From positions 5,787 through 69,786 of the forward strand of contig JAVCCC010000032.1 of assembly GCA_030765785.1 (NCBI GenBank): DNA of 64,000 bases. The letters are read 5' to 3'. Origin of the DNA: Candidatus Aceula lacicola (GTDB lineage Bacteria; Omnitrophota; Gorgyraeia; Zapsychrales; Aceulaceae). Shown here one piece after another: positions 1-18,063 of this stretch (the stretch's first letter is position 1; the number at the start of each line of letters is the position of its first letter). Made by a program: the position numbers and the translations under genes. The notes below the pieces were generated by a model that ran no database searches, had not been told where the DNA came from, and was given only the letters and a program-made list of their open reading frames with translations.

Positions 1-3000
1 CTTTAACAATTCCAGAAAAAGATTTGTGGGTCAATCTTTCTCCTTATGAAGAAAACCGCATTGTCGAAAAGAATTTCTCAGAAACAGACATGGGGAGAGA
101 TCTTTTGGCGCAAGATTATCTTTTAAAGCAAGTCGTGACCACATTGATTTATCCAGAGGGAGAGATAGGAAAAAAGTTTTGGGAAAAAGTTTACAAGAAA
201 GCATATGAACTTTTTGGTACGACTGAAGTCTCTGTTGATTCCTTGAACAAAGTGTGGATTGTTCCTGATAAGGCTGTTGTTTACGAAAGAGGAAATATGG
301 CTTTTGTTGCAGAGTCGAATCTTAAGGTTTTTATGGAAAAAGATTATTTGGCATCGAAAGAATATCAAAAAGATTCTTTAAGCAAGGAAAAGTTAAACGT
401 TGATCAGAAGCCTAAGCGAATGGATTTTTCAGATCAAATCGTTCAGGAAGTCATCATTCCAGAATTGGAGAAAGAAGTAAATTTTGGGAAAACTTTCAGT
501 CCTTTACGGCAAATTTATCATGCTCTTATTTTGGCAGATTGGTTTAAAAAGAAATTATCAAACAGTCTTATCAATTATGTTTATACAGGCAAAGGAAAAA
601 CTTCTGGAATAGATGTTTATGATCAAAAGGAGGCTGGAAGAATTTATTCTCAATATATTGAGAATTATAAAAAAGGGACTTGTGATTATCTTAAAGCAGA
701 ATATGATCCATTTTTAAAAAAATATGTTCCTCGCAAGTATTTTTCGGGTGGAGTAACTTGTATGAATGTTGATAGCCAAGTCCTAGACAATCCCGACGAC
801 CTTTCCTCTTCTAATTTAAAGAATATTAAAAGGGATGCCGTGAAGTATCATATTGCTTTGCAGCAGGCACCTTCTCAGTTATCTAGCTCAATTTCTTCAG
901 ATGCAATTCTTCCTAAGGATGGATCGATTTTCAATAGTGAGTTTGCGCCTGGCGAATTTGTTCGTCAGCTTCCTGAGGAAAATCGCGAGTGGCATATGGA
1001 AAACTTAAAGGAGTGGATCATTGAGAACGCAGAGAGATATTTGAATGAGCGGCTTTCCGGTGCTATTCGTTGGGATATTTTTATGAACCACTCCTTGCCT
1101 TATTTTGGGTTTTCGAATGATCAGATATTAGAAATTGTTGATCGTCTTAAAGTAGAGGAGAAGTCTTTAAAGATTTCTTCTGAAGGTAATCGTCCGGCTG
1201 AGTGGGAAATGATTGAATCCCTTAAGAGTTCGGCGTGGCCCTATACACAGATAATGGCAAAGAATATCATTGCTTATTTAAGGTTTGAAGAGAGTGAATC
1301 TGCCGAAAAGGATTTTTCAGAGATTTTTAGGAGTGGACAAATTTTTAAAGAGAATATTATTTTTTCAATTTCTGGAATAAAAGAAAGCTACAAGCTTTAT
1401 CCGTATTTGCGACAAATTATTAAGGATACGTTTTTTTTATCGAGTTCAAAAACAGAAAGAATTGATAAGTTAATGCGCATCGCAGAACGTGAAGTCAATG
1501 TAAGCACGCACAAAGGACAAGACCTTTTGAATTTTTCTAACTTAAAGAAAATATTAGAAAGTAATCATCAAAGACGAAGAACGGGACCAAATGCAACCTA
1601 TGATCCTGAGGTTACGGAGGCTCTAGAAGAGTTAAAGATTCTGGCAGCAAGCCTGATCGATAAAACACCGGGGGCTATTGATGATGTTAAAGAAATTGTT
1701 AGCATATATTGCGATCAAGACATCTTGCTTAGACTTGAAGATGCTGTCGAGCTGTTTTCTGGCGGAGATAATCTTGAGGCGATTCTTGTGTTAACAAATA
1801 TTAGGTCAGATCTTTATTTGTTAATTGTCGAGCAAATAAAACAAGCAGATAAAATTAATCATAGTCGTCAGCAGCGCTATGGTCCCCATATTTCTCAGTC
1901 TCAAGAGAAGGCAACAATAGCTTATAAGCTTATGGAGGCAGATATTTTGATTGAGCAGATGATTGTTGATTCTTCTACGGAAGCTTTTTCTTTGGTTAGA
2001 AGCAACGCAAGTTTAAAATCTTTTTCTTTAGAGAATGTTAAAGATATTATCTTGTCGGTATACATTATTGCTAAAAATATGTCTCATTCGATCGGTGCGC
2101 AGCCAGCGTTAAATGTTTTTGCTGATAATTTAATCAAGCTAAGAGATTCTGACCATCTTGGCGAAGAAAAGGAATATTATAGAATTTATGGGTTAATTCA
2201 GCAGATTGAAGCTGAGCTTGCTGATAATGTTGATAATTTGGTGAAGGAATTTAAATTTCGCGTTGAAGCCATGCAAAAGAATCAAGGTGTTAATGATTAT
2301 GAAGATACGCCTGAGTCCCTAGGGTTTGTTCAGGATTTTCTGATTTCAACGATGTTAAGGCAATTTAGCGAACGATTTCTTTTGGATTGTAGGAAAATAA
2401 TTGATGAGATGGAGGGCCCTCAAGATTTGACGATGACAGTCGATTCGGTTTCTCAACGAAAGGTTAGAAAGATCGTAAACGTTCCTGTTGATCTAGATCA
2501 CATTCCTTTAATCGTTAGTTTTGAGTCAGCAACAGAAGATCAAATGAGGAAGATTGGATCTAAAGCCTTTGGCCTTTACATCATGAAGAAATTGGGTATG
2601 CCTGTTCCCCCGTGGTTTGTGATCCGGGCAAAGCCTCGAAAGGATATTTTTGATATTAATGAAGTCCGAGATGAGCTGGAAAACCAGATTAAGGAAATTG
2701 AAAAAAGTAGCGGAACAAAAATAGGAGACCCAAAGAATCCTTTGTTGTTTTCTTTGAGATCAGTATTTCAGGTTTCTATGCCGGGAGAGTTTCCAACAGT
2801 TTTAAATGTAGGGATGAATCAAGAAGTTTTTGAAGGATTGAAGGAATCTAGGGGTGAGAAATTCGCTTTAATTAGCTATCTTGCTTTCTTAAAAACATAT
2901 GCAGATATGTTATATCCTAATTTATCAGATAGAGTAAATATGGATGATTTTTTAGGAGACGATCAAGATATTGATAGTTTATTGGATTTTTTAAGTGGAC

Positions 3001-4202
3001 TTAAGATTTTTTTAAAGCAGTCTAAAATCAAAATTCCCGAAGATCCTTGGCAGCAAATAGAAATTATTGTAGATCATATTATGAATAAATCAACGACACC
3101 AGAAATAGAGAATTTCTTGGCTTTGCATGGTCTCCCAGATTCTTGGAAAGTGAGTGTTATTTTTCAGAAAATGGAGTTTGGCTATTTAAACGATGAATCT
3201 TATACGGCAGTTGCTCACACGAGGGATGTGATGACTGGCGAAGATAAATTTGACATTGAGGCGATTTATGGAGCAACAGGAGAGTCTGTTGTTGGGAAAA
3301 GAAGCTCTGCGCGCCAAGTTCATAATATTCTCCCGGTGGAGGATGAAGAAATGCTAGAAATTTTTAAGCCGCAGTTAGAAAAAATATTTGGTGGCCCTGT
3401 TGAGCTTGAAATTACCAGGGGCGAAAAGCTTCATTTCCTTCAAGCTAGAACAGGACATCTTGGGGCGCAAGCGCTAAAGAAAAGCTTGAACGATTTGGTT
3501 CAAGAGAAAATTTTAACAAAGGAAGAGGCGGCTTTTCAGATTGAAATTGCTGAGACCCTTTCTGGCAAGAATGAAATCTTTCCTAACGCAGAGTCTTTGG
3601 TTATCGCTGGTGGAATTAGCGGGGGCGTCATGGCAGGGCCAATTTGCTTATCTCTTGATCAGGCAAGGAAAGCCATGAGTGACGGGGAAAATGCTATTTT
3701 AATTCTAGAAAATACACCTGATAGAAATGATAAATCTTATTATGGAAAGAACCTAGGGGTTGTCACGGCTCACGGAGGCCCATCTCAACATTTTTCTGTT
3801 TGGTCAAGACAATATCACATGCCTTACATTTCGATGGTAAAAGACATTGAAATTGATCTGGGCAACAAAAAGATTAAAATGGGAGGCAGGCAGTTTAAAG
3901 AGGGAGATGTTGTCACGATGGATGGTTATCGTGGATTGATTTTTAATGGAAATGTTGTTAAGAATTCTTCTCCAGCGGGAAAAGGGGTCGGATCCTCTGC
4001 TGTTGGTGGTATCGACTTGAGTCGGACGTTTGAATCCTTAAATATAAAGATGGATCAGTCTGGATCACCTTTGCCTGTCGAGTTTCAAGATATTGATCAG
4101 ATTCATATTCGAGGATTGATTCCCGTGATTATTAATGTTGTGCCTGTTCAGAATGTATCAACGCTTCTTGGGATTAACGCAAAAGGTTTAGTTGGATTCT
4201 AA
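1..4202 (+). CDS. Giant multidomain protein, 5'-partial (frame open to window edge). Shared N-domain (~nt 1-780), unique middle, PPDK/PEP-synthase-type ATP-grasp domain (~2430-3500), PEP-utilizer swivel phosphohistidine domain (~3560-3960), shared C-terminal tail (~3990-4202)
   Basis: No in-frame stop back to nt 3. The N-terminus aligns with aa ~110-360 of the next gene (LWVNLSPYE..MGRDLLAQDY..KVWVIPETAVVYE..RKYFSGG). 'KLGMPVPPWFVI' and 'RSVFQVSMPGEFPTVLNVGMN' match the PPDK_N 'GLPVPPGF' and 'VSMPGMMDTVLNLGLN' motifs. 'VVTAHGGPSQHFSVWSRQYHMPYI' matches the 'GGRTSHAAIIARELGIPCVVG' swivel-His motif. No PEP/pyruvate barrel follows. Confidence 0.7.
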   Translation, partial: LTIPEKDLWVNLSPYEENRIVEKNFSETDMGRDLLAQDYLLKQVVTTLIYPEGEIGKKFWEKVYKKAYELFGTTEVSVDSLNKVWIVPDKAVVYERGNMAFVAESNLKVFMEKDYLASKEYQKDSLSKEKLNVDQKPKRMDFSDQIVQEVIIPELEKEVNFGKTFSPLRQIYHALILADWFKKKLSNSLINYVYTGKGKTSGIDVYDQKEAGRIYSQYIENYKKGTCDYLKAEYDPFLKKYVPRKYFSGGVTCMNVDSQVLDNPDDLSSSNLKNIKRDAVKYHIALQQAPSQLSSSISSDAILPKDGSIFNSEFAPGEFVRQLPEENREWHMENLKEWIIENAERYLNERLSGAIRWDIFMNHSLPYFGFSNDQILEIVDRLKVEEKSLKISSEGNRPAEWEMIESLKSSAWPYTQIMAKNIIAYLRFEESESAEKDFSEIFRSGQIFKENIIFSISGIKESYKLYPYLRQIIKDTFFLSSSKTERIDKLMRIAEREVNVSTHKGQDLLNFSNLKKILESNHQRRRTGPNATYDPEVTEALEELKILAASLIDKTPGAIDDVKEIVSIYCDQDILLRLEDAVELFSGGDNLEAILVLTNIRSDLYLLIVEQIKQADKINHSRQQRYGPHISQSQEKATIAYKLMEADILIEQMIVDSSTEAFSLVRSNASLKSFSLENVKDIILSVYIIAKNMSHSIGAQPALNVFADNLIKLRDSDHLGEEKEYYRIYGLIQQIEAELADNVDNLVKEFKFRVEAMQKNQGVNDYEDTPESLGFVQDFLISTMLRQFSERFLLDCRKIIDEMEGPQDLTMTVDSVSQRKVRKIVNVPVDLDHIPLIVSFESATEDQMRKIGSKAFGLYIMKKLGMPVPPWFVIRAKPRKDIFDINEVRDELENQIKEIEKSSGTKIGDPKNPLLFSLRSVFQVSMPGEFPTVLNVGMNQEVFEGLKESRGEKFALISYLAFLKTYADMLYPNLSDRVNMDDFLGDDQDIDSLLDFLSGLKIFLKQSKIKIPEDPWQQIEIIVDHIMNKSTTPEIENFLALHGLPDSWKVSVIFQKMEFGYLNDESYTAVAHTRDVMTGEDKFDIEAIYGATGESVVGKRSSARQVHNILPVEDEEMLEIFKPQLEKIFGGPVELEITRGEKLHFLQARTGHLGAQALKKSLNDLVQEKILTKEEAAFQIEIAETLSGKNEIFPNAESLVIAGGISGGVMAGPICLSLDQARKAMSDGENAILILENTPDRNDKSYYGKNLGVVTAHGGPSQHFSVWSRQYHMPYISMVKDIEIDLGNKKIKMGGRQFKEGDVVTMDGYRGLIFNGNVVKNSSPAGKGVGSSAVGGIDLSRTFESLNIKMDQSGSPLPVEFQDIDQIHIRGLIPVIINVVPVQNVSTLLGINAKGLVGF
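2430..3960 (+). other. PPDK/PEP-synthase-like nucleotide-binding (ATP-grasp) plus swivel phosphohistidine domain segment inside the giant protein, lacking a PEP/pyruvate TIM barrel. Putative catalytic His codon at 3789-3791
   Basis: Motifs listed for the parent CDS; 'HTRDVMTGEDKF' resembles the PPDK 'FTRNPSTGEKKL' segment. Confidence 0.6.
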
Positions 4203-4303
4203 GGTAAATCAGAATTGCTAGAATTTTTTATTAGAAATCTTGTATTTTATTTTTATCTTTTTTGAAGAACTTTTTCAAGCCTGTAAGGCATTTGCTGTGA
4301 GTA

Positions 4304-4312
4304 TGTTAGAAT
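4304..4312 (+). promoter_or_regulatory. Possible extended -10 promoter element (TGtTAGAAT) upstream of giant gene 2
   Basis: 'tgttagaat' at 4304-4312; no good -35 found. Confidence 0.2.
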
Positions 4313-4387
4313 ATAGACATTTACTAGGACTGTGAGATATTGAGCTTCAAAACCTTGCTTTTTCTTAGAAATATGCTATATTTTTAC

Positions 4388-4418
4388 AAACGTTTTCAAA
4401 AGAAAACGTTTTCAAAAC
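4388..4418 (+). promoter_or_regulatory. Tandem direct repeat 'aaacgttttcaaaaG/C' (4388-4402 and 4404-4418), each with an internal inverted repeat (cgtttt..aaaacg), located 140 nt upstream of giant gene 2. Candidate operator or small hairpin
   Basis: Read directly from the sequence: acaaacgttttcaaaagaaaacgttttcaaaaccc. Confidence 0.35.
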
Positions 4419-4557
4419 CCTGACATTATTTTTATAATTTTTTTTCTATCAGTTAGGGGCAAAAATGCCACGATTTTATATATTTTAAAATAAACAAATA
4501 ACAATTAAACTTCATTTCTCAAATTAATTCGCCACGGAGAAAAAAAGGAGTAAATTC

Positions 4558-7500
4558 ATGATCAGTACATTCGAAGCGAGAAAATCAACTTTCTCTTATA
4601 AGGCACTTTGTGCGTTTGTCGCATTCGCTTTTTTTGCGACAATGGTTATTTTCCCTAATACAGCTCAGGCTCAAGGTGTGGCTAGTTTGCCGGCACCTGG
4701 AACTATGATCGGTATGACACCGGCATTTGCACCGCCAATTATTAAGGGTGTGCAGATTGATCCGCAGCATCCATTCCAGTTTAATTTTGTTCTTGATACT
4801 GGAGATGACCATGTCTCAGGCAAAAAGCTTGAACGCGAAGCCGACAAACTTATCAAATATTTCTTAGCTGCGATTACTGTTCCTGATGAAGATTTATGGG
4901 TGAACCTTTCTCCATATGAACAAGACCGCATCGTTCCAGAAGAATTTGGAAAAACAGAAATGGGACGTGATCTTTTGGCTCAGGATTATATTTTAAAACA
5001 ATTTACGGCATCCTTGATTTATCCTGAAGATGAGCTTGGAAAAACGTTCTGGGATCGAGTATACAAAAAAGCATATGAAAAGTATGGCACAACGGATATC
5101 CCTGTTAATACTTTTAACAAAGTATGGGTTATTCCTGAGACAGCCGTTGTTTATGAGCATGAAGGCACAAGCGCTTTTGTTGTTGAAAGACATCTAAAAG
5201 TTATGCTTGAAGAGGACTATCTTGCCTTATCGAATAATTTAAATAATGAAAAAATTGGAACAAGCCTTCAGGGTGAGGCTGAATCTAAAGATGTGAATAG
5301 TATTTCTTCTGAGATTGTTCGAGAAATTCTTATTCCAGAGATTGAGAAAGAAGTTAACTTTGGAAAGAATTTTGCTAACCTTCGCCAGATTTATAATGCT
5401 ATGATTTTATCAACTTGGTACAAAAGACAGTTGCGCGAAAGTGTTTTTGCTGGTGCGTATGCGAATAAAAATAAAGTTTCTGGTGTTGATATTGCCGATA
5501 AAGCGCAAGCGCAGAAAATTTATAATCAGTATTTGGAAGCGTTTAAAAAAGGTGTTTGCGACTATATTAAGGTAGAGCAAGATTCTCAAACGGGAAGAAA
5601 TATTCCAAGAAAATATTTTTCTGGTGGTTCGAAGCATGTTTCAAAAAATGTTCGTGTTAAAAAGAATTTATCGTCTTTGACATCAAGACAAGCAGGAGAA
5701 TTCAGCGCGAGCGCTGGACCTTTGGCTGTTGTTAAGGGTTTTGCGGATCCGGCTAACATTAAGTCGGCAGGAGAGAGAGCAGTTTTAGGATACAGAGGTG
5801 CAAAGGATGATGTATCGGGTTCTCCAATAGTTGTCGATGACATAGATGGTAAGGATGAGTACGTCCTTCAAGTAGGAAGTGAGGGAGTTTTTGTTAAGGA
5901 TAAAAATTGGGTTCAATTTATAGGAAAGAGATTGAGGCCAATTCAAGCATTAGAGAAAGCAATCGATGTTTTTCTCTCTAAGCATTTTTCTAAAATAGAT
6001 TATGAAAGTATAGTTTTGCAATGGGATCGAGCTCAAACTCGATTAGATGGGGTTGATGTTGTCTCATTGTCTCAAGGGAAGATAGATCAGATATCGGAAT
6101 CGTTAAAAAAGGCATCAAAACGCAGTCAGAGTCTAGACACAGATTTTAAGATTATGATGGATAATTTAAAATTTTATCAAGATCGACTTGAAAAAATAGT
6201 TGGAGACCTTGCGTATGAGGTGAGTAATGGCAAGAAAGTTTCTGAAATAAATTCGAACGATCTTTTGAGAAAGGCCAGAGAAGGGGAAAAAGATACAAAA
6301 ATTTTAGATGAATCTGGTTTGACAAAATTATTCAGGAAAGTAAGTGGATTTTTAAGGCTTGAACAATTTACAGCGATTAATGTCGCTGTTTCTCTTCATA
6401 GTATGCTTTTAAAATTTGCTGGAACAGATGCTCCTGGTTGGCAGTGGGCTTTGTGGGCGTTAGCTACCTTTTCTGTCACAACCATTATTCATGAGTTAGG
6501 TCACTGGTATCAAGGTCAGAAATCTAACACTCTTACATTGGAAGAAATTCCTTTTAAGATTATAAGAGATTCAGGAAAAATAAAGGATTCTTTGCTACTA
6601 AAATATTACAAGAATCAATCTGTTCTAAAACAATCGATTGAGGAGAAGATGCTTAAAGATAAGCTTTTTAAAGAAGAAGTTGAAGATTTTGTGAAAGGCC
6701 TTGAGTTTAAAAGTGTTTCTGGAGATAAACTGATTTTTGATGTTAGCGAAATTGATAAAAAACTTTCTGATGGAAAGAAAGAAAAGTTTTTTGAATATTT
6801 TGAAAAAGATAGCTGGCTGATGGATTCTAAAAAAGAGCACGAAATGCGAACAGGTATGGCTAATTATTGGGAAAAGACAAAATTGATTAACCGTTTAAAA
6901 AGACATGATATTATTAAGGGGTCAAAGTGGATTCCAGAATGGCTGACTTTTAACGCGCGAGGCTTGCAAGTTAATTTTAGCCGAACAACTTTGCAAAATC
7001 TTGCCTATGGGCCTCTTTTTAGCGCTTGGATGACAGGGGGAGCGATAGCGGTTTTGTTGGCTTCTCTTATTGTTCCTGGACTAGCCACAACATGGGTTCC
7101 TGGACTAGCGCTAACAACAGTTGTCATTGGGCTTTTTAATTCCATTTTTGCTGATAATTCAGCTCTTTTAGATTTAATAAAAGAAAAAAGGTTGGACCGA
7201 GCACGTAAAAAGGCAGTTAAGGCAGGTGTTGGCAAAGAAGAAGCAAAAACCATAGATGTTGATTTGCTTGTTAAGGGTAAAGATGGCAAGATGAGATCTT
7301 GGAGCATGATGAATCCTGAAGATATCAGAAGCATTGTGCGATATGATGAAAAAAAGAATGTTTATGTTCTCCCAGCAATGATTCATTGTAACGTTATTAA
7401 TGGCGGAAAACATTCAGACGGAAGCGCAACATTTCAGGAGTGGATGTATTTGCCTCTTGGGTCTGAGAGTGTTGATGAGGCCTTAGAAAAATTAACTGAC

Positions 7501-9246
7501 CTTTTTGATGCATTAAAACGAATTGTTCGAGCTGAATATGGGACATTGGGGGAAATGGGGAAAGAAGGAGGAATTGCCCCTATTTTACCAAACCAGAGAG
7601 AAATCCTTGTTTTGATGCGTAAAGCAGGAGAATTGTGCGGTTATGTTGAAGGAAAAGATTTTGCATATTCGCTTGATATTGCGGCTAGTGAGATGGAAAA
7701 TGCGGCAGAAAAAGCGGGTGAGCCGGGACAGTATCGAATGTTCAAAGACAGAAATCCAGTGAATTTACAGACGGATCAATTAATAGACGTATATGGAGAA
7801 TTAATAAAAGAATTTTGTATTATTTCTATTGAGGATCCTTTTCACGAAGATGATGTGGAAGGGTATACGAAATTTACAAAACTTTACGGAAAGAACGGAA
7901 CACGTCTTGAGGGTCTTCGTTTTCCGATTCAGAAAAAAGGGATACAGATTGTTTTAGATGACATCTCTGCGACGAATCCTATGTTAATTTACGCATTGAA
8001 ACAGGCAGGATGCGGAAATTCTATTTTGATTAAGCTTAATCAAATAGGGACGGTAACTGAAACGATTAATGCCATCAAAATTACGGAAGGCAATGGCGTT
8101 CCATTATTGCAAAAGGAAAAAGATGGTAAAGAATATGCTGATTCCTATGGAACAAAAATTTCACATCGTTCTGGGGAAACTGAGGACACCCTTCTTGGAG
8201 ATTTTGTTGTTGGAATGGGTGGTGGCCAGCTTAAAACCGGATCGGTAAATCGATCAGATAGAATGGGAAAATACAATCGATTGAAGAAAATAGCACATTT
8301 TTTAGAAGCGAATGTGGCCAAGAAGCGATCGTTATTAATTAAGCCGAAAGGTGAAATTATCATTACGGATGCTTTGGCAACAGATACCTATGATTCTAAT
8401 GGGAATCCGACAGTAACGCTTGAACTTTATTTTTCTAATGGCAGTAAGCAGGAAGCAACGGTTCCTTCTGGAGCTTCAACTGGTAAAAGAGAAGCTCAAG
8501 AATTGCGAGATGGTGACAAAGAACACCATCGAGGAAAAGGAACTAAGAAAGCGACAAAAAATGCTGCAGACTTGGCGGAGAAAATATTAGTAGGAAAGAA
8601 GCTTTCAGAGCTGAACCAATTTGATGTTGATCAGGCTATGCTGAGAGACGAGTTAGAAAAAGGGAAAGTAAACAATTATCAAGAAATTAAAAAAAGAGGA
8701 AAAAATCCTATTATTAATTTAGAGCGAGATGAATATTTAAATACGGTTGAGCAACAGCTTTATAAAACAGAGAATGGGGCTAATGCAATGTTGGCTGTGT
8801 CTATGGCGTTTGCGAGAGCTAAGGCATATTCTGAAGGACTTGAGCTATTTCAATATTTTGCCGAATTGAAGAAAGAGCCAATGAGGCAGGATGAATTGTA
8901 TGGTGTAAAGGTTCATTTTAATCCTCTTGATGCGAATGTTGTCTCCTCTGGAATACCTACAAATGTAAAAACATTAGATAGATCAGTATCTTTTCCACCT
9001 GTTGCCAGCGTTGGCGCAATCGACAACAATGAATCTCTTGGTGGTATTAGCATGAATTCTGGATTATTGGATCTTCAAATCAAGAGAGATAGCGCAGGTT
9101 CACCGCTTCCAATCAGTCAGCAACCGATTATGAATATGAATATTCAAGGGTTTAAATTTAATATTATGACAATTACGCCAATTACAACAACGTTGCCGAT
9201 GTATTTGGGGATGAGTGATGGTGATTTGTCGATTGCAATGTTGTAA
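4558..9246 (+). CDS. Giant secreted/membrane protein (1562 aa). Signal peptide, shared N-domain (~4860-5640), HELGHW zinc-peptidase-like motif in a hydrophobic segment (6490-6504), two TM helices (~7000-7170), circularly permuted enolase (~7357-8875), shared C-terminal tail (~9040-9246)
   Basis: RBS aaaaaaggag 8 nt upstream of the ATG. N-terminal 'FVAFAFFATMVIFPNTAQAQ' reads as a signal peptide. Enolase signatures 'SILIKLNQIGT', 'ISHRSGETED' and 'GQLKTGSVNRSDR' precede 'DSNGNPTV..VPSGASTGKREAQELRDGD..NGANAMLAVSMA'. Confidence 0.8.
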   Translation: MISTFEARKSTFSYKALCAFVAFAFFATMVIFPNTAQAQGVASLPAPGTMIGMTPAFAPPIIKGVQIDPQHPFQFNFVLDTGDDHVSGKKLEREADKLIKYFLAAITVPDEDLWVNLSPYEQDRIVPEEFGKTEMGRDLLAQDYILKQFTASLIYPEDELGKTFWDRVYKKAYEKYGTTDIPVNTFNKVWVIPETAVVYEHEGTSAFVVERHLKVMLEEDYLALSNNLNNEKIGTSLQGEAESKDVNSISSEIVREILIPEIEKEVNFGKNFANLRQIYNAMILSTWYKRQLRESVFAGAYANKNKVSGVDIADKAQAQKIYNQYLEAFKKGVCDYIKVEQDSQTGRNIPRKYFSGGSKHVSKNVRVKKNLSSLTSRQAGEFSASAGPLAVVKGFADPANIKSAGERAVLGYRGAKDDVSGSPIVVDDIDGKDEYVLQVGSEGVFVKDKNWVQFIGKRLRPIQALEKAIDVFLSKHFSKIDYESIVLQWDRAQTRLDGVDVVSLSQGKIDQISESLKKASKRSQSLDTDFKIMMDNLKFYQDRLEKIVGDLAYEVSNGKKVSEINSNDLLRKAREGEKDTKILDESGLTKLFRKVSGFLRLEQFTAINVAVSLHSMLLKFAGTDAPGWQWALWALATFSVTTIIHELGHWYQGQKSNTLTLEEIPFKIIRDSGKIKDSLLLKYYKNQSVLKQSIEEKMLKDKLFKEEVEDFVKGLEFKSVSGDKLIFDVSEIDKKLSDGKKEKFFEYFEKDSWLMDSKKEHEMRTGMANYWEKTKLINRLKRHDIIKGSKWIPEWLTFNARGLQVNFSRTTLQNLAYGPLFSAWMTGGAIAVLLASLIVPGLATTWVPGLALTTVVIGLFNSIFADNSALLDLIKEKRLDRARKKAVKAGVGKEEAKTIDVDLLVKGKDGKMRSWSMMNPEDIRSIVRYDEKKNVYVLPAMIHCNVINGGKHSDGSATFQEWMYLPLGSESVDEALEKLTDLFDALKRIVRAEYGTLGEMGKEGGIAPILPNQREILVLMRKAGELCGYVEGKDFAYSLDIAASEMENAAEKAGEPGQYRMFKDRNPVNLQTDQLIDVYGELIKEFCIISIEDPFHEDDVEGYTKFTKLYGKNGTRLEGLRFPIQKKGIQIVLDDISATNPMLIYALKQAGCGNSILIKLNQIGTVTETINAIKITEGNGVPLLQKEKDGKEYADSYGTKISHRSGETEDTLLGDFVVGMGGGQLKTGSVNRSDRMGKYNRLKKIAHFLEANVAKKRSLLIKPKGEIIITDALATDTYDSNGNPTVTLELYFSNGSKQEATVPSGASTGKREAQELRDGDKEHHRGKGTKKATKNAADLAEKILVGKKLSELNQFDVDQAMLRDELEKGKVNNYQEIKKRGKNPIINLERDEYLNTVEQQLYKTENGANAMLAVSMAFARAKAYSEGLELFQYFAELKKEPMRQDELYGVKVHFNPLDANVVSSGIPTNVKTLDRSVSFPPVASVGAIDNNESLGGISMNSGLLDLQIKRDSAGSPLPISQQPIMNMNIQGFKFNIMTITPITTTLPMYLGMSDGDLSIAML
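7357..8875 (+). other. Circularly permuted enolase module: C-terminal TIM-barrel domain (7357-~8320) followed by the N-terminal capping domain (~8350-8875). Metal ligands and catalytic residues apparently conserved
   Basis: Barrel start 'YVLPAMIHCNVINGGKHSD' compared with E. coli 'SMPVPMMNIINGGEHAD'. 'SLDIAASE', 'SIEDPF' and 'VLDDI' match Mg ligands D246, E290 and D317. K345, H373 and K396 equivalents are present. N-domain Ser in 'SGASTGKREA'. Confidence 0.7.
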
Positions 9247-12967: not shown

Positions 12968-13828
12968 ATGAATAGATATGTTGAAAAGTTTTTGTCATAT
13001 CTTGATATTGAGAAAAATTATTCAAAACACACGATTTTAAATTATAAAATTGACCTAGAAGAGTTTTTTATTTTTTTGAAAGATACATCTATAGAGAGAG
13101 TTGATTATTTTCATCTGAGACGTTATTTGGCAAATCTGCGTACAAGGGAGTTTAAGCCAAGGACAGTGGCGCGTAAGCTTTCGGCTTTGAGAAGTTTTTT
13201 TAAATTTATTTATCGCGAAGGATTGATAGGAAAGAATCCTGCCACTCTTTTGATGACGCCAAAGCTGGATAAAAAATTACCACAATTTTTATCCGAAAAA
13301 GATGTTGAGCGCTTAATAGAGGGACCAAAAGAAAAAGATGAGCCAAATCTTCGAGACCGCGCTATTTTAGAAACACTTTATAGCACAGGTATGCGCGTTA
13401 GCGAACTTGTCTCTTTGGATTTAAATCGAGTTGATTTTATTAGCAATATTGTCAAGGTGGCAGGAAAAGGAAAAAAAGAACGTCTTATTCCTATAGGTGA
13501 AACAGCACTTAAAGTGATTCGAGAATATGTTGATAAAAGAAAGAATAAATCAGAAGCAGTTTTTTTAAATCTGAGAGGTGCGCGTCTGACAGATCGAAGC
13601 GTGCGCAATATTGTTGATAAGCATATTCGTCAGGCAAGCATTCAAAGCAAGATTTCTCCGCATGCATTAAGACATTCGTTTGCAACACATCTTTTAAATG
13701 CGGGAGCAGATTTACGTGCTGTGCAGGAGTTGTTAGGACACGTGAATCTATCAACGACCCAAATTTATACCCATATGACTACAGAGAAGCTTAAAAAAGT
13801 TTATGATAACGCGCACCCGAGAGCATGA
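12968..13828 (+). CDS. Tyrosine recombinase XerC/XerD family
   Basis: 'ALRHSFATHLL..GADLRAVQELLGHVNLSTTQIYTH' catalytic R-H-R-Y region. Confidence 0.85.
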   Translation: MNRYVEKFLSYLDIEKNYSKHTILNYKIDLEEFFIFLKDTSIERVDYFHLRRYLANLRTREFKPRTVARKLSALRSFFKFIYREGLIGKNPATLLMTPKLDKKLPQFLSEKDVERLIEGPKEKDEPNLRDRAILETLYSTGMRVSELVSLDLNRVDFISNIVKVAGKGKKERLIPIGETALKVIREYVDKRKNKSEAVFLNLRGARLTDRSVRNIVDKHIRQASIQSKISPHALRHSFATHLLNAGADLRAVQELLGHVNLSTTQIYTHMTTEKLKKVYDNAHPRA

Positions 13829-15090
13829 TGACCATATTATATAATTTAGCATTTTTTATTTTTTCAATTGTTTATTTGCCATATCTTTTGATTAAACGTA
13901 AATGGCATAAAGATTTTTCAATGCGTTTTGGATTTCTTAAAGATTTAGAAACTTCAAGCGCACCTCGTATCTGGATTCATGCTGTAAGCGTAGGTGAGGT
14001 TGTGGTGATCAAAAATCTTTTGGATGAAATTCGCCAAAGATATCCTGAGAATCCTATTGTGATTTCCGTTGTCACTCAAACAGGCTTTGAAATGGCACAA
14101 AAGATTTCAAGCCAAGAGGATCAGGTTATTTATGCGCCTTTAGATTTTAGTTTGTCAGTGCGCCGATACATTGATGCGATTAATCCGAGGATCTATATTA
14201 ATGCTGAGACAGAGATTTGGCCAAATTTATTGACGCAATTGCATCGTCGCGGTGTCCCTATTGTTCAGATCAATGGACGCATTTCTGATCGAGCGTTTAA
14301 AGGATATCGATTTTTAAAGTCAGCGATTAGTCCAGTCCTTAATTATATTAGTTTTTTTTGTATGCAAAGCGATCTTGATGCTAGTCGAATTAAAGAGCTT
14401 GGGGCATCTCAAAAGCGTATCGAAGTCGTTGGCAATATGAAGTTTGATGATATCTTAGATTCTAATCAAAAAGAACTTCCAAATTCAATTGTTGATGACA
14501 TTGAAGAGTTTTTTGTAGCTGGAAGCACGCATCCAGGTGAAGAAGAGATTATTTTAGATATTTTTAAGAAAACTAAAAGTCGTTTTGAGAATTTGCGTCT
14601 CATCATCGCTCCTAGACATCCTGAGCGCGCCAATGAGATTGTTGAGTTGGTTCAAAGAAAAGGATTCAGGGCGGTTAAATTTTCTCAGATGTACGATTTG
14701 ATTATGGATCAAGAAACAGTTGTTGTGGTTGATACTATCGGACACTTGCGCTCATTGTATCGATTGGCAAAAGTTGTTTTTGTGGGCAAGAGTTTGACGG
14801 TGCAAGGGGGTCACAATATTATTGAGCCTGCGTATTTTGAGAAACCGATTATTATCGGTCCTTATATGCAGAATTTTAAAGATATTACAGCGTTATTTCT
14901 ACAAAACAATGCCATTGTTCAAGTAAAAGATAAAAAGGAATTTGGAAAAGAGCTTGAACATCTTCTGGGGGATTCGGTGCTTTGTGAAGAACTTGGCGTG
15001 AGAGCAAGAGAGGTTATTGAGCAGTACCGAGGGGCAAGCGAAAAGACGTTCGACATGATTTCAATTATTTTGAGTAAGGCTAAGGAATGA
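13825..15090 (+). CDS. waaA: 3-deoxy-D-manno-octulosonic acid (Kdo) transferase
   Basis: 'WIHAVSVGEV' KdtA motif and GT-B architecture. Confidence 0.85.
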   Translation: MMTILYNLAFFIFSIVYLPYLLIKRKWHKDFSMRFGFLKDLETSSAPRIWIHAVSVGEVVVIKNLLDEIRQRYPENPIVISVVTQTGFEMAQKISSQEDQVIYAPLDFSLSVRRYIDAINPRIYINAETEIWPNLLTQLHRRGVPIVQINGRISDRAFKGYRFLKSAISPVLNYISFFCMQSDLDASRIKELGASQKRIEVVGNMKFDDILDSNQKELPNSIVDDIEEFFVAGSTHPGEEEIILDIFKKTKSRFENLRLIIAPRHPERANEIVELVQRKGFRAVKFSQMYDLIMDQETVVVVDTIGHLRSLYRLAKVVFVGKSLTVQGGHNIIEPAYFEKPIIIGPYMQNFKDITALFLQNNAIVQVKDKKEFGKELEHLLGDSVLCEELGVRAREVIEQYRGASEKTFDMISIILSKAKE

Positions 15091-16142
15091 AGAAATATCT
15101 TTATGAACTTATGACAGATCAGCGTAAAGATTGGCTAGCGCAAATCTTTAAGATCGTTTTGTTGGTTTTGTCTTTTTTGTATTGGGCGGGAATCAAAATA
15201 ATTTTATGGATGTATCGTCAAAAGATTTTAAAGACAAAACGGTTGCCAAAGCCTGTTATTAGCGTCGGCAACATTACCATTGGTGGTGTTGGCAAAACGC
15301 CTTTAGTTCGTTTGATTGCAACAATGTTTCAATATCACAGCCTTAAGCCTGTGATATTGACTCGAGGTTATATGGCAAAGGGTACGGGTTCGGACGAAGC
15401 TGAGATGCTTAGAAGCCAACTAAAGGATGTTCCTATTTTAGTCGGAGCTAATCGATATCAGGTAGCTCAAGATTTTTTAAGAGCGAACAGAGCCGATATT
15501 TTTATTTTAGATGATGGATTTCAGCATTGGTCGCTTCTTAGAAATTTTAACATTGTTGCGATTGACTCAACGCGTCCGTTTGGAAATCTTTTTTTAATTC
15601 CGCGTGGAATTTTGCGTGAACCAATGGATTCATTGAAGCGAGCAGATATTTTTATTCTGACAAAAACAGATTTGGGAAAAGAGAATATAAAGAAAATTTG
15701 CCAGAAGATAAAGCAATTTCAGCCTGCAGCGGTTATTGTAGAGACAGTACATAATCCTGTGGCTTTAATTAATATTAACAATTCTGGAGACAGACGGGAC
15801 ACGTCTGCTATTTCGGGTCATTTGGCATGTCTTTTTTCAGGCATCGGAGATCCTCGATCTTTTGAAGGAAGCGTCGAATCTCTCAGGGTTGATATTAAAA
15901 AACATTTTATTTTTATGGATCATCATTGTTATTCTAAAGATGACATTGAGCGCATTGTTCATTATTGTCGAGTTCACAATATTAAAACATTAATTACAAC
16001 ACAAAAAGATGCTGCTCGATTGCCTGGGTTATTGCATTTATTCTCAAGGGAATTGAATGTTTTTATTTTGGAAATTGAGATGAAAATTTTGAAAGGAGAG
16101 CAAGATCTTGAAAAGCGAATTTTCTATTTTCTGGATCGTTAA
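15087..16142 (+). CDS. lpxK: Tetraacyldisaccharide 4'-kinase
   Basis: 'SVGNITIGGVGKTPLV' P-loop. Confidence 0.85.
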   Translation: MKKYLYELMTDQRKDWLAQIFKIVLLVLSFLYWAGIKIILWMYRQKILKTKRLPKPVISVGNITIGGVGKTPLVRLIATMFQYHSLKPVILTRGYMAKGTGSDEAEMLRSQLKDVPILVGANRYQVAQDFLRANRADIFILDDGFQHWSLLRNFNIVAIDSTRPFGNLFLIPRGILREPMDSLKRADIFILTKTDLGKENIKKICQKIKQFQPAAVIVETVHNPVALININNSGDRRDTSAISGHLACLFSGIGDPRSFEGSVESLRVDIKKHFIFMDHHCYSKDDIERIVHYCRVHNIKTLITTQKDAARLPGLLHLFSRELNVFILEIEMKILKGEQDLEKRIFYFLDR

Positions 16143-18063
16143 GATTTTTGCTGCGTTTGTGCGTTGGCTTCCTGTGTCAGTTGCGCTTTGGTTGGGGCGT
16201 GTGATTGGGACGATAGGGTATCTTATAGATCATCGACATAAATCGCTTGCATATGCAAATTTAAAGATTGCATTTTCTTGTCAAAAAAAGACAAGCGAAA
16301 TTAAAGGTATTTTAAAGAAGGTTTTTCAGAATTATGCGCAGAATTTTATTGAACTTTTGCGTCTTCCAAAGATTGACCCACATCAATATATTACGCTTGA
16401 GGGAAAAGAACATGTTGATGAAGCTTTGAAAAAGAACAAAGGACTTATCTTGCTTGCAATGCATTTTGGCAGTTGGGAGCTTTGTAACTTTATGAGCAAG
16501 CTTTTAGGTCATCCATATCGAGTTGTTGTCAATCCTCAAAAACGACATCAAAGGCTTAATGATTTGCTTAATTCTTATCGTCAGAAGGCAGGGGCAAGCC
16601 TTGTTGAGCCAGGTTCGGGAACGCGTGATTTTGTAAAAGCTTTGCGTAATAATGAAATTGTTGGAATGGTTGTTGACCAAGGAGGAAAAACAGGAAGTCT
16701 TACTAAATTCTTTGGAAGGGAATCTTCGATGTCTTTAGGCGCGATTAAAATGGCGTTAAAGCTAGGAGTCCCTGTTTGTTTTTGTACGATTGTCCGTGAT
16801 CCTAAGGCTGCGCATCATAAGCTTAAAGTTTTTTCGCCGTCTCAGTTTGAGATAAGCGGTAATAGAGATCAAGATATCGCTGATAGTTTAAATAAAGTTG
16901 TTACTCAGATGGAAAAAGTTATTGTTAAATATCCTTCTGAGTATATGTGGTTTTATAAAATTTGGAAGTATTCAAAAGAATCCACCATTGTTGTCTTGAG
17001 CGATCAAAAATTTGGACATTTAAATCAGTCAAGGGCATTTTCTGAGAAAATTAAAAAGGCATTAGCGGAGCGATCTATTCGATGCCATATCGAGGTCATC
17101 GATGTTGAGTTTAAAGATGAAGCAAAAAAAACAATGTTTGCAGCACTTAGCTTTGCTATTCATGAAAAGACCTCACAAGGACGTCTTCGATATTTAAAAT
17201 GGTTCTTAAAGCGTAAATCGTTTTTAGAGGTAATGAGCGTTAAAGGGGATTTTGTTGTATCATGCGGTTCGTCTATTGCAGGTGTTAATTATTTTCTATC
17301 TCAGGATTATCGTGCTAAAAGCATTGTTCTTCAGAAGCCAGGAATTTTAAGTTTTAAACGGTTTGATCTTATTCTTTTGCCAAAACATGATAAGAAAAGT
17401 TCTCAGCAGTATGGAGAAAATGTTGTCTTTACGAATTTGACGCCGAACCTTATTGATCAAGAGTATTTGCAAAGCCAAGCAAGCAGGTTGATGGCAAAGT
17501 TTCCAGACCTTCATCATCGCAAAAGTCCAACCATTGGCCTAATGATTGGTGGAGAATCAAAAAATTATTTTATATCAAATATTCAGGTTGAAAGTATTGT
17601 TGAGCAGGTCAAAGAGGTGGTTGAACAACGGCAAGGTCGAATTTTAGCAACAACTTCAAGGCGAACTCAAAAAGATGTTGAGATTGTCGTTAAAGCAGGA
17701 TTGTCTGATTTTAATCAATGTCCGTTTTTGGTTATCGCGACTGAAAATAATGTGCCAGAAGCGGTTGGTGGTATTTTAGGAATTTCTGACATTGTTATTA
17801 TTTCCTCAGACAGCATCTCTATGATTTCAGAAGCTGTTAGCTCTGGAAAAACTGTTATTGTATTTGATGCAGAAAAGAGAAAAGTTAATTACAGAGGAAA
17901 GCATGAAGTTTTTGCTGAGAATTTGTTTAAACAAGAACATATTTTGAGAGCGAAAACATATGAAGTTGGATTGGTTTTAAATAACGTCATTGAAAATAAT
18001 ATTAAAACTAAGCCTATTTGCGATCAACAAGTTTTGTTTGAGGCTGCACGCCAAATTATATGA
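16108..18063 (+). CDS. lpxL: Lipid A lauroyl/myristoyl acyltransferase (LpxL/HtrB family) fused to a C-terminal DUF1022/ELM1-like domain. TTG start with a strong SD
   Basis: N-terminal half matches the LpxL family ('MHFGSWEL', 'MVVDQGG'). C-terminal half 'LSDQKFGHLNQSRAFSE..IGLMIGGESKNY' resembles the DUF1022 N-terminal motif. SD 'gaaaggagag' is 8 nt before ttg16108. Confidence 0.6.
   Translation: MKSEFSIFWIVKIFAAFVRWLPVSVALWLGRVIGTIGYLIDHRHKSLAYANLKIAFSCQKKTSEIKGILKKVFQNYAQNFIELLRLPKIDPHQYITLEGKEHVDEALKKNKGLILLAMHFGSWELCNFMSKLLGHPYRVVVNPQKRHQRLNDLLNSYRQKAGASLVEPGSGTRDFVKALRNNEIVGMVVDQGGKTGSLTKFFGRESSMSLGAIKMALKLGVPVCFCTIVRDPKAAHHKLKVFSPSQFEISGNRDQDIADSLNKVVTQMEKVIVKYPSEYMWFYKIWKYSKESTIVVLSDQKFGHLNQSRAFSEKIKKALAERSIRCHIEVIDVEFKDEAKKTMFAALSFAIHEKTSQGRLRYLKWFLKRKSFLEVMSVKGDFVVSCGSSIAGVNYFLSQDYRAKSIVLQKPGILSFKRFDLILLPKHDKKSSQQYGENVVFTNLTPNLIDQEYLQSQASRLMAKFPDLHHRKSPTIGLMIGGESKNYFISNIQVESIVEQVKEVVEQRQGRILATTSRRTQKDVEIVVKAGLSDFNQCPFLVIATENNVPEAVGGILGISDIVIISSDSISMISEAVSSGKTVIVFDAEKRKVNYRGKHEVFAENLFKQEHILRAKTYEVGLVLNNVIENNIKTKPICDQQVLFEAARQII

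What the first reader, a model, noticed from the sequence alone, without database searches (positions are those of the whole stretch)
2430..3960. PPDK/PEP-synthase-like ATP-grasp and swivel phosphohistidine pair without a PEP/pyruvate domain (candidate dikinase acting on a non-PEP substrate)
'IGSKAFGLYIMKKLGMPVPPWFVI' and 'LRSVFQVSMPGEFPTVLNVGMN' correspond to 'GGKGANLAEM..GLPVPPGF' and 'SMPGMMDTVLNLGLN' of the PPDK/PEPS nucleotide-binding domain. 'GGISGGVMAGPICL' through 'VVTAHGGPSQHFSVWSRQYHMPYI' through 'GYRGLIFNG' corresponds to the phosphohistidine swivel domain 'GGRTSHAAIIARELGIPCVVG..DGSTGEV'. The catalytic His would be in the SQH triplet at 3789-3791. The protein then ends in the shared tail, so there is no PEP/pyruvate TIM barrel. 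The same two-domain logic is used by rifampin phosphotransferase and plant glucan, water dikinases, which transfer the ATP beta-phosphate to a small molecule or a polysaccharide. Here the module is fused to a large N-terminal region that is probably extracytoplasmic, based on the signal peptide of paralog gene 2.
Basis: partly seen in the sequence, partly recalled or inferred. Interest (0 to 1): 0.7.

Follow-up and report, generated by a model that had tools for sequence, protein, structure and literature searches.

The report
Truncated PPDK paired with permuted enolase
This gene encodes the ATP-binding and phosphohistidine parts of pyruvate phosphate dikinase (PPDK) without its pyruvate-binding barrel, fused to a new helical domain; wherever the downstream DNA could be read, in Omnitrophota and in Desulfobacterota-type genomes, the unit sits just upstream of a membrane-anchored, circularly permuted enolase, which points to an undescribed two-protein device at the PEP step of sugar metabolism.

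Summary
Window 2511-3971 encodes a PPDK nucleotide-binding ATP-grasp domain and a phosphohistidine swivel domain. The catalytic His is at 3789-3791, the nucleotide-site residues are conserved, and there is no PEP/pyruvate barrel in the gene or anywhere in the 64 kb.

1. The 'unique middle region' (828-2510) is a conserved, all-helical, about 560-aa domain. A search of 1.84 billion protein representatives finds it only directly upstream of this truncated PPDK. Together they form a distinct clade, separate from canonical PPDK and from the actinobacterial VadK-type short PPDKs.
2. In all eight loci with readable downstream DNA (Omnitrophota, Desulfobacterota-type MAGs and one MAG labelled Gammaproteobacteria), the unit precedes a gene for a membrane domain (TM helices plus HExxH) fused to a circularly permuted enolase. 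Gene 2 here is that partner.
3. In this organism both partners sit inside an Omnitrophota-specific 'bracket': a signal peptide plus an about 330-aa N-domain, and an about 65-aa C-tail. Thousands of proteins with cytoplasmic-type enzyme cargo share this bracket.

The most likely function is an autophosphorylating His dikinase whose acceptor site lies in the helical domain and/or the enolase partner. The acceptor and the cellular location are unresolved. I rate it a new variant of a known kind.

The parts
3..4202 (+). Gene 1. The CDS is cut by the left edge of the window, which removes about 105 codons including the signal peptide. 1399 codons plus the stop remain. 'g1 numbering' counts residues from nt 3.
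   Evidence: ORF list; frame open from nt 3; orthologs P0001 (1515 aa) and P0002 (1516 aa) at 55/54% identity and 99% coverage
3..827 (+). C-terminal about 275 residues of the Omnitrophota 'bracket' N-domain (LWVNLSPYE..GRDLLAQDY.LKQ...PRKYFSGG)
   Evidence: 51% identity to gene 2 residues 106-376. The same domain is N-terminal in all 122 retrieved proteins. No Pfam, NCBIfam or PDB match.
828..2510 (+). Clade-specific all-helical 'mid' domain (g1 residues 276-836), the candidate acceptor-binding or partner-docking domain
2514..3458 (+). PPDK nucleotide-binding (ATP-grasp) domain, equivalent to C. symbiosum PPDK residues 6-340
   Evidence: K22, R92, G101, Q240, T253, E271, E323, Q335 and R337 are conserved, and D321 is E, in g1, P0001 and P0002.
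3594..3965 (+). Phosphohistidine swivel (PEP-utilizers mobile) domain
3789..3791 (+). Codon of the predicted phospho-accepting His (g1 H1263; H1256 in the ORF that starts at nt 24)
   Evidence: Aligns with His455 of C. symbiosum PPDK. Invariant in all 8 clade members.
3990..4199 (+). Bracket C-terminal tail (GGIDL..L.IK.D..G.PLP..FQ.I....I.G.iPVIiNv.PV)
   Evidence: A tail HMM hits the C-terminus of 118 of the 122 proteins that carry the N-domain. Matches the tail of gene 2.
4558..9246 (+). Gene 2, the conserved partner. Layout: signal peptide (4558-4671), bracket N-domain (about 4672-5697), membrane region with HELGH and TM helices (5698-7332), enolase barrel (7366-8304), then enolase N-domain (8341-8646 and 8764-8871), then bracket tail (9022-9243).
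   Evidence: Enolase_C at residues 936-1250 comes before Enolase_N at 1269-1363; TIGR01060 scores 330 bits against a cut-off of 300. Permutation verified against PDB enolase 9x4f. TM segments. Conserved position downstream of the PPDK unit.

Best explanation
Gene 1 carries a self-contained dikinase unit: an all-helical 560-aa domain, the PPDK ATP-grasp domain and the phosphohistidine swivel domain. The unit works together with the protein encoded just downstream, a membrane-anchored, circularly permuted enolase.

Proposed mechanism:
1. The ATP-grasp domain binds MgATP and transfers phosphoryl to His1263 of the swivel domain, as in the first two partial reactions of PPDK (ATP + Pi -> AMP + PPi + E-His-P). 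This is inferred from conserved residues and from the VadK precedent.
2. The swivel domain carries the phosphoryl group to a second site. No PEP/pyruvate TIM barrel is present, so this site must lie in the invariably attached helical domain and/or on the enolase partner.
3. My preferred reading is that the helical domain is the acceptor-binding third domain, following the logic of rifampin phosphotransferase, HpeHI and glucan dikinase. The acceptor would be a carboxylic acid at the enolase node, such as pyruvate/PEP or glycerate/2-phosphoglycerate, so that the pair feeds or drains the enolase reaction at the membrane.

In this Omnitrophota genome both partners have also been placed inside the lineage's N-domain/C-tail bracket, behind a Sec signal peptide. 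The meaning of that for location is not understood.

Shown: domain identity, residue conservation, clade, synteny. Inferred: catalysis, acceptor, direction.
For: - Domain identity and missing barrel.
- Nucleotide-site residues and the catalytic His are conserved in g1, P0001, P0002 and across the whole clade.
- The mid domain occurs only fused to this PPDK half (6 hits in 1.84e9 representatives; 10 hits). It has 43 invariant positions, many of them charged. It is modelled confidently together with the PPDK half (pTM 0.83).
- The clade is separate from canonical PPDK and from NF004531-type short PPDKs.
- A permuted-enolase gene lies downstream in the window and in L004, L001/L011, L005, L013, L014, L015 and L006/L016. 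Overlapping stop and start codons in the Desulfobacterota-type loci (L006 9956/9956, L005 13507/13507) suggest co-translation.
- Enolase catalytic motifs are intact in gene 2 and, read by eye, in the Desulfobacterota partner sequence.
- Neighbours include FBP aldolase/phosphatase. Distant long truncated PPDKs sit in GAPDH-PGK-TIM clusters.
- Precedent that a barrel-less PPDK still autophosphorylates its His with ATP/Mg: VadK, PMC13400623.
Against: - There is no biochemical evidence.
- R135 of C. symbiosum PPDK is not conserved, and the TSH motif is S/T/A-Q-H in the Omnitrophota members and mostly A-Q-H in the rest of the clade.
- The helical domain has no recognisable ligand-binding fold, so its role as acceptor site is only an analogy.
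- Replacing a working pyruvate barrel with a different domain suggests the acceptor may no longer be pyruvate.
- Orthologs have a Sec signal peptide and no other TM segment. This would put an ATP-dependent enzyme in the periplasm, in a different compartment from the predicted cytoplasmic enolase domain of the partner.
- In this genome the enolase cargo is only 24-28% identical to that of the orthologous-position partners, so the coupling may have loosened.
Confidence: 0.45

Rival explanations
1. VadK-like regulatory histidine kinase. The unit autophosphorylates on the swivel His. In a phosphorylation-dependent way it then binds, or passes phosphate to, the enolase partner (or to an invariant His of its own helical domain). 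This tunes flux at the PEP/2-PG node and makes no small-molecule product.
For: The only characterised barrel-less PPDK, M. tuberculosis VadK, autophosphorylates on the equivalent His and interacts with metabolic enzymes of one pathway (PMC13400623). Synteny with one specific enzyme is strict. Invariant H629 and a near-invariant His in the VSTHKG motif of the helical domain could act as relay sites.
Against: g1 is not in the VadK/NF004531 family: it scores 174.8 bits against a cut-off of 456 and falls in a separate clade. VadK has no 560-aa extra domain. So large a domain with so many invariant charged residues is more than a docking surface usually needs. The VadK mechanism itself is still only a model.
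Confidence: 0.25
2. One reading: a dikinase for an acceptor unrelated to central metabolism (antibiotic, aromatic compound, glucan or other polymer), bound by the middle domain, as in rifampin phosphotransferase, HpeHI, PigC or glucan water dikinase.
Against: There is no sequence match to RPH, PigC or RedH models at E <= 0.1. The ATP-grasp and swivel are contiguous as in PPDK, with no inserted substrate domain. No carbohydrate-binding module was found. The conserved neighbour is enolase, not a catabolic or resistance gene.
Confidence: 0.12
3. Split, non-canonical PPDK. The permuted enolase itself supplies the PEP site, so that phosphoryl passes between enolase-bound PEP and the swivel His. The overall reaction would be 2-PG + AMP + PPi <-> pyruvate + ATP + Pi.
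For: The pairing is obligatory and the enolase permutation is conserved across lineages. The PPDK half lacks exactly the domain that binds the enolase product.
Against: The enolase active site is not known to allow phosphoryl transfer or access by a protein His (established enolase mechanism, my own knowledge). It leaves the helical domain without a role. Gene 2 has a fully canonical enolase site.
Confidence: 0.08
4. Catalytically irrelevant cargo. The PPDK remnant is a structural or binding module of an exported Omnitrophota surface or coat protein, related to the enzyme-rich giant 'Archaeovorin' proteins, and does not turn over ATP.
For: Signal peptide with no TM segment in the orthologs. 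The barrel is lost. PPDK_N and glycolytic domains in Omnitrophota giant proteins are also predicted to be extracellular (bioRxiv 10.1101/2023.11.21.568195). There is no ATP in the periplasm (general knowledge).
Against: All key nucleotide-site residues and the His are conserved across orthologs that share 32-56% identity, including signal-peptide-free cytoplasmic versions in Desulfobacterota. 85 positions in the PPDK half are invariant.
Confidence: 0.1

Closest known systems
Pyruvate, phosphate dikinase (EC 2.7.9.1; TIGR01828; PDB 1dik, 1vbg)
   Same: ATP-grasp nucleotide-binding domain and phosphohistidine swivel domain in the same order and spacing, about 27-30% identity. K22, R92, G101, Q240, T253, E271, E323, Q335, R337 and H455 are conserved.
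   Different: No PEP/pyruvate TIM barrel (PF02896). Scores 228 bits against the 843-bit equivalog cut-off. Carries a 560-aa helical domain in front. Falls in a separate clade.
VadK / Rv1127c-type short PPDK (NCBIfam NF004531; EMBO Rep 2026, PMC13400623)
   Same: PPDK that has lost the barrel but keeps the ATP-grasp and catalytic His. VadK autophosphorylates with ATP/Mg and is functionally tied to specific metabolic enzymes.
   Different: Independent lineage: 175 bits against the 456-bit cut-off, and a separate branch in the NJ tree. VadK is about 490-550 aa with no extra domain, no enolase partner and no signal peptide.
Three-domain dikinases with a non-PEP acceptor: rifampin phosphotransferase (PMC4844700), HpeHI hydroxyphenylethanone kinase (PMC12167813), glucan water dikinase (PMC13553574), prodigiosin ligases PigC/RedH
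   Different: Different domain order or split subunits. No sequence-level membership. The acceptor domain here is a new all-alpha fold placed N-terminally. The genomic partner is enolase.
Omnitrophota giant 'Archaeovorin' / multi-enzyme proteins (bioRxiv 10.1101/2023.11.21.568195; 10.64898/2026.06.07.730766)
   Same: Same phylum. PPDK_N and glycolytic enzyme domains in signal-peptide or TM-bearing proteins, with the same unexplained predicted extracytoplasmic location.
   Different: These are discrete 1.4-1.6 kaa genes with a defined N-domain/C-tail bracket around one cargo. In the sections and passages I read, those papers do not describe the bracket, the mid domain or the PPDK-enolase pairing.
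PTS Enzyme I
   Different: EI has the PEP barrel and no ATP-grasp. g1 is the reverse.

Membership tests
Canonical PPDK (TIGR01828 equivalog) | ATP-grasp nucleotide-binding domain with the catalytic Lys/Arg/Glu/Gln set | tested here: met
   PF01326 hit. K22, R92, G101, Q240, T253, E271, E323, Q335 and R337 conserved; D321 is E; R135 is not conserved.
Canonical PPDK (TIGR01828 equivalog) | Phosphohistidine swivel domain with the catalytic His | tested here: met
   PF00391 hit. His455 equivalent at window 3789-3791.
Canonical PPDK (TIGR01828 equivalog) | C-terminal PEP/pyruvate-binding TIM barrel (PF02896) | tested here: not met
   No PF02896 hit. TIGR01828 is matched only over positions 4-510 of 865. 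Nothing in the window matches the barrel.
Canonical PPDK (TIGR01828 equivalog) | Whole-protein score at or above the curated cut-off (843 bits) | tested here: not met
   227.9 bits
VadK-type short PPDK (NF004531) | ATP-grasp plus swivel, no barrel | tested here: met
VadK-type short PPDK (NF004531) | Score at or above the curated cut-off (456 bits) and same clade | tested here: not met
   174.8 bits, whereas actinobacterial P0126 scores 490.8. Separate branch in the NJ tree.
VadK-type short PPDK (NF004531) | ATP/Mg-dependent autophosphorylation of the His | not testable with these tools
   Requires purified protein. Shown for VadK in PMC13400623.
Rifampin phosphotransferase (NF041857) | Family model match, and a substrate-binding domain inserted between ATP-grasp and swivel | tested here: not met
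New clade defined here: mid-domain + truncated PPDK | About 520-560 aa all-helical domain directly N-terminal to the PPDK half | tested here: met
New clade defined here: mid-domain + truncated PPDK | Next gene (or next but one) encodes a membrane domain plus circularly permuted enolase | tested here: met
   Window gene 2. Also L004, L001/L011, L005, L013, L014, L015 and L006/L016.
Omnitrophota N-domain/C-tail bracket family | Conserved about 330-aa N-domain at the N-terminus | tested here: met
   The last about 275 residues are present at window 3-827, 51% identical to gene 2. The rest is off-window.
Omnitrophota N-domain/C-tail bracket family | Conserved about 65-aa C-terminal tail | tested here: met
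   Tail HMM E 6e-36 at g1 residues 1330-1398
Omnitrophota N-domain/C-tail bracket family | Sec-type signal peptide | tested here: inconclusive
   The N-terminus of gene 1 lies outside the window. It is present in orthologs P0001 and P0002 and in gene 2, judged by hydropathy and an A-x-A motif only.

The most novel reading that the evidence does not exclude
The helical-domain/truncated-PPDK protein and the membrane-anchored permuted enolase would form one machine that replaces the classical PEP/pyruvate barrel with a new acceptor site. This machine would couple enolase chemistry directly to ATP/PPi-level phosphoryl transfer at the membrane. In Omnitrophota it would be one cargo of a thousand-member export or display system (signal peptide + N-domain ... 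C-tail) that places whole cytoplasmic-type pathways outside the cytoplasm or into prey cells.
Probability: 0.15. Interest if true: 0.85.

Novelty: new variant of a known kind. Interest (0 to 1): 0.64.

Why it matters
Barrel-less PPDKs were long annotated as 'PPDK' without a known function, and the first one (VadK) was characterised only in 2025-26. This finding defines a second, independent lineage. It brings its own conserved extra domain and a strictly conserved, oddly built enzyme partner, a permuted enolase on a membrane anchor. That gives a concrete, testable pair for asking what phosphohistidine dikinases do once they lose the pyruvate site.

It also gives a small, tractable entry point into a known puzzle of Omnitrophota biology: why glycolytic and other cytoplasmic-type enzymes sit in proteins with export signals. 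The same two cargos exist both with the bracket (this window, L004, L001) and without it (L015, Desulfobacterota-type MAGs).

Tried and rejected
- Barrel supplied by another gene in the window. Rejected for these 64 kb by tblastn with full-length PPDKs. A PTS Enzyme I gene lies 9 kb upstream in L001 but is not part of the conserved block.
- Membership of VadK/NF004531, RPH or PEP synthase families. Rejected on curated scores and the tree.
- Pfam identity for the membrane/HExxH region of gene 2 and of the Desulfobacterota partner: none.
- Homology between the mid domain and the about 900-aa N-terminal regions of P0176/P0177: not detected by HMM.
- Literature on the bracket family, on permuted membrane enolases, or on a PPDK-enolase pairing: nothing found.
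- A terminator between genes 1 and 2: none found. Promoter-like hexamers are present, so co-transcription here is undecided.
I could not check whether the helical domain occupies the barrel's position or whether the tail contacts the N-domain.

Full report
**1. The observation.**
It is the 3' part of a longer gene. The frame is open from nt 3, and the first residues (LTIPEKDLWVNLSPYE) align with residues 106 onwards of the neighbouring gene 2. About 105 codons, including the signal peptide, therefore lie outside the window. I number residues from nt 3 ('g1 numbering'; subtract 7 for the ORF that starts at nt 24).

- Pfam gives PPDK_N (E 2.8e-16) and PEP-utilizers (E 6.9e-9), both above their gathering scores.
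- The NCBIfam PPDK equivalog TIGR01828 matches at E 2e-67, but only over model positions 4-510 of 865.
- C. symbiosum PPDK (1dik) matches at E 1.1e-52 over its residues 6-513.
- There is no PEP-utilizers_C hit, and the protein ends in a short linker plus tail. Full-length PPDK queries find nothing resembling the barrel anywhere in the 64 kb.

**2. Is the half-enzyme likely to be active?**
I mapped the residues known from work on C. symbiosum PPDK (my own knowledge of that literature) through the HMMER alignment. K22, R92, G101, Q240, T253, E271, E323, Q335, R337 and H455 are all present in g1 and in its orthologs P0001 and P0002. D321 is Glu in all three. R135 and E279 vary, and the TSH motif is S/T/A-Q-H. 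Across eight clade members that share only 32-56% identity, 85 positions of the PPDK half are invariant, including the His. This is the pattern of an enzyme under selection, not a decaying remnant.

**3. The middle region is a domain that belongs to this PPDK half.**
g1 residues 276-836 (window 828-2510) have no Pfam match. A profile of the four orthologs, searched exhaustively against 1.84 billion representatives, found only six proteins. They are the orthogroup, a 100% identical metagenome fragment (P0121), and P0171, P0172 and P0173. In each, the region is followed directly by PPDK_N plus PEP-utilizers and no barrel. A profile search of the 5.8-billion-sequence set added P0174 and P0175. 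These are 1168-aa proteins from a JGI metagenome and an unnamed NCBI record, close relatives of the Deltaproteobacteria-MAG protein P0171; one is named 'phosphohistidine swiveling domain-containing protein'.

An NJ tree of the PPDK halves puts all of these on one branch. That branch is apart from canonical PPDKs and from the short actinobacterial proteins. The latter are the NF004531 family: P0126 passes its cut-off with 490.8 bits, while g1 reaches only 174.8 bits against 456.

**4. The conserved partner.**
Gene 2 (4558-9246) shares the N-terminal domain (51% identity over 271 residues) and the tail with gene 1. Its cargo is an enolase whose barrel (residues 936-1250) comes before its N-terminal domain (1269-1363). 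Alignment to PDB enolase confirms the circular permutation: query 12-324 matches enolase 157-430, then query 337-438 matches enolase 9-109. The SIED, DD, KxNQIG, SHRSGETED and KTG motifs are intact. It passes the TIGR01060 cut-off with 330 bits against 300. A region with an HELGH motif and TM helices precedes the enolase.

The order PPDK unit then enolase protein recurs in:
- The orthologous Omnitrophota loci L004 and L001/L011. L001/L011 has one extra bracket protein in between. These loci share flanking genes: prepilin peptidase upstream in both, and shikimate kinase downstream. DprA and TopA are seen in L004, as in the window.
- An unbracketed Omnitrophota locus, L015.
- A Desulfobacterales MAG (L013).
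- A MAG labelled Gammaproteobacteria (L014).
- A Deltaproteobacteria MAG (L006/L016) and a closely related JGI metagenome contig (L005, L007).

In the Desulfobacterota-type versions the unit has no signal peptide, N-domain or tail. The two genes overlap at stop/start, and in L006 and L007 the next recognisable gene is FBP aldolase/phosphatase. The Desulfobacterota partner (1067 aa) has four or five TM helices, an HERGH motif and the same barrel-then-N-domain order. Its HMM matches the Omnitrophota partners P0017, P0041 and the L001 gene end to end. The pair is therefore an old, conserved two-gene module that Omnitrophota later put inside their bracket. More distant long truncated PPDKs, P0176 and P0177, have about 900 helical residues followed by a PPDK half. 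P0177 sits in a GAPDH-X-GAPDH-PGK-TIM cluster, and P0176 sits next to a GAPDH gene and near a phosphoglycerate mutase.

**5. The bracket.**
A search with full-length gene 1 gave 3895 proteins at E <= 1e-5 among 8000 scored candidates. Wherever a source names them they are Omnitrophota, and they are 800-2400 aa long. Their cargos include full-length PPDK, enolase, phosphoglucomutase, glucose-6-phosphate isomerase, PGK, glycogen synthase, FBPase, methyltransferases, CheY receivers, PP2C and NAD synthase.

- The N-domain is always single and N-terminal, behind a Sec-type signal peptide with an A-x-A|Q site.
- A tail HMM hits the C-terminus of 118 of 122 proteins.
- 89 of 117 members have a strongly hydrophobic N-terminus, and only 13 have an internal TM-like segment.
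- The organism is diderm: KdtA, LpxK and LpxL lie at 13825-18063.

Published work on Omnitrophota giant proteins has already noted PPDK_N and glycolytic domains predicted to be extracellular, and called this puzzling (bioRxiv 10.1101/2023.11.21.568195; 10.64898/2026.06.07.730766). In the passages I read, it does not describe this bracket or this pair.

**6. Mechanism.**
- Shown: domain identity, conserved catalytic residues, an exclusive fusion to a new helical domain, and strict synteny with a permuted, apparently active enolase.
- Inferred: the unit autophosphorylates His1263 from MgATP as PPDK does. The barrel-less VadK of M. tuberculosis does the same (PMC13400623).

The phosphoryl group must then go to a site other than a PEP barrel. 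Rifampin phosphotransferase (PMC4844700), HpeHI (PMC12167813) and glucan water dikinase (PMC13553574) all use ATP-grasp plus swivel plus a third acceptor domain. By analogy, I take the helical domain as the acceptor site. From the synteny, I take the acceptor as a metabolite of the enolase node.

My estimates for the alternatives are:

| Reading | Confidence |
|---|---|
| Helical domain is the acceptor site, acceptor at the enolase node (preferred) | 0.45 |
| VadK-like regulatory role towards the enolase partner | 0.25 |
| Inert structural cargo | 0.10 |
| Enolase itself acts as the PEP site | 0.08 |

**7. Unresolved.**
Orthologs of gene 1 have a signal peptide and no TM segment. The whole ATP-dependent unit and its tail are therefore predicted to be periplasmic. 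By homology with the Desulfobacterota partner and the positive-inside rule, the enolase domain and tail of gene 2 are predicted to be cytoplasmic. The two partners, and two copies of the same tail, thus come out on opposite sides of the membrane. I could not resolve this.

In this genome the bracket of gene 2 is 72-84% identical to that of the orthologous-position proteins, but its cargo is only 24-28% identical and looks much more like canonical enolase. This suggests cargo replacement or very uneven divergence.

**8. Verdict.**
It is not a wholly new kind of enzyme, because barrel-less PPDKs and three-domain dikinases are known. It is a distinct, undescribed lineage with its own extra domain and an obligatory, unusual partner, seen here in an Omnitrophota-specific packaging whose meaning is open. 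I rate it a new variant of a known kind, with interest 0.64.

Noticed in passing
window 3-827 and 3990-4199 (gene 1); 4558-5697 and 9022-9243 (gene 2): A very large Omnitrophota protein family (3895 hits at E <= 1e-5 among 8000 scored). A signal peptide plus an about 330-aa N-domain and an about 65-aa C-tail bracket highly diverse cytoplasmic-type enzyme cargos. Neither element has any Pfam, NCBIfam or PDB relative.
   Followed up: partly
window 7366-8871: The enolase of gene 2 is circularly permuted: the barrel (enolase residues 157-430) comes first, then the N-domain (residues 9-109 and 116-151). All catalytic motifs are intact. The same permutation occurs in the Desulfobacterota-type partners.
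   Followed up: yes
window 5698-7332; L006 9956-10975: The enolase partners carry a membrane region with TM helices and an HExxH motif (HELGH here, HERGH in the Deltaproteobacteria MAG) that matches no Pfam family. It may be an intramembrane metalloprotease-like module.
   Followed up: partly
window 4558-9246 compared with P0017 (L004) and L001 19883-24418: The bracket of gene 2 is 72-84% identical to the proteins at the orthologous position, but the cargo is only 24-28% identical and much closer to canonical enolase. This looks like cargo replacement inside a conserved bracket.
   Followed up: partly
gene 1 orthologs P0001/P0002 compared with gene 2 / P0017: Topology paradox. The PPDK unit and its tail are predicted exported (signal peptide only). 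The partner's enolase and tail are predicted cytoplasmic (odd number of TM helices after a periplasmic N-domain).
   Followed up: partly
L008/L009 8001-12254; L010 2424-6623: Another class of long (about 1400 aa) barrel-less PPDKs, with a 900-aa helical N-terminal region. One sits inside a GAPDH-X-GAPDH-PGK-TIM cluster (L008/L009). The other lies next to a GAPDH gene and near a phosphoglycerate mutase (L010). No detectable sequence homology to the mid domain.
   Followed up: partly
L015 (Omnitrophota MAG JACQZH010000023.1) 2124-8773: An Omnitrophota genome carries the same PPDK-unit/enolase pair without the bracket. At 36-40% identity to g1 it resembles the distant relative P0172, a 1486-aa protein in which the unit is followed by a weak HD-domain match and which has an SP-like N-terminus.
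   Followed up: partly
L011 (CAZYOA010000001.1): The record that holds the closest full-length ortholog is titled 'uncultured Planctomycetales bacterium', although its bracket proteins and synteny are those of Omnitrophota. The taxonomic label is probably wrong.
   Followed up: no
window 1-64000: 52 of the 53 ORFs of at least 150 aa are on the + strand, and GC skew is positive in every 2-kb bin (0.13-0.36). This is extreme strand bias over the whole window. No tRNA genes in 64 kb.
   Followed up: no
window 12968-20165: A XerC/D-type tyrosine recombinase is followed by lipid A/LPS core genes: KdtA, LpxK, an LpxL-like acyltransferase fused to an ELM1-like domain, and a GT4-GT9 fusion. These show the organism is diderm.
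   Followed up: no
P0121 (JGI contig, 3037 bp): A 736-aa metagenome fragment is 100% identical to gene 1 over the PPDK half. The same organism is therefore present in a public JGI metagenome.
   Followed up: no
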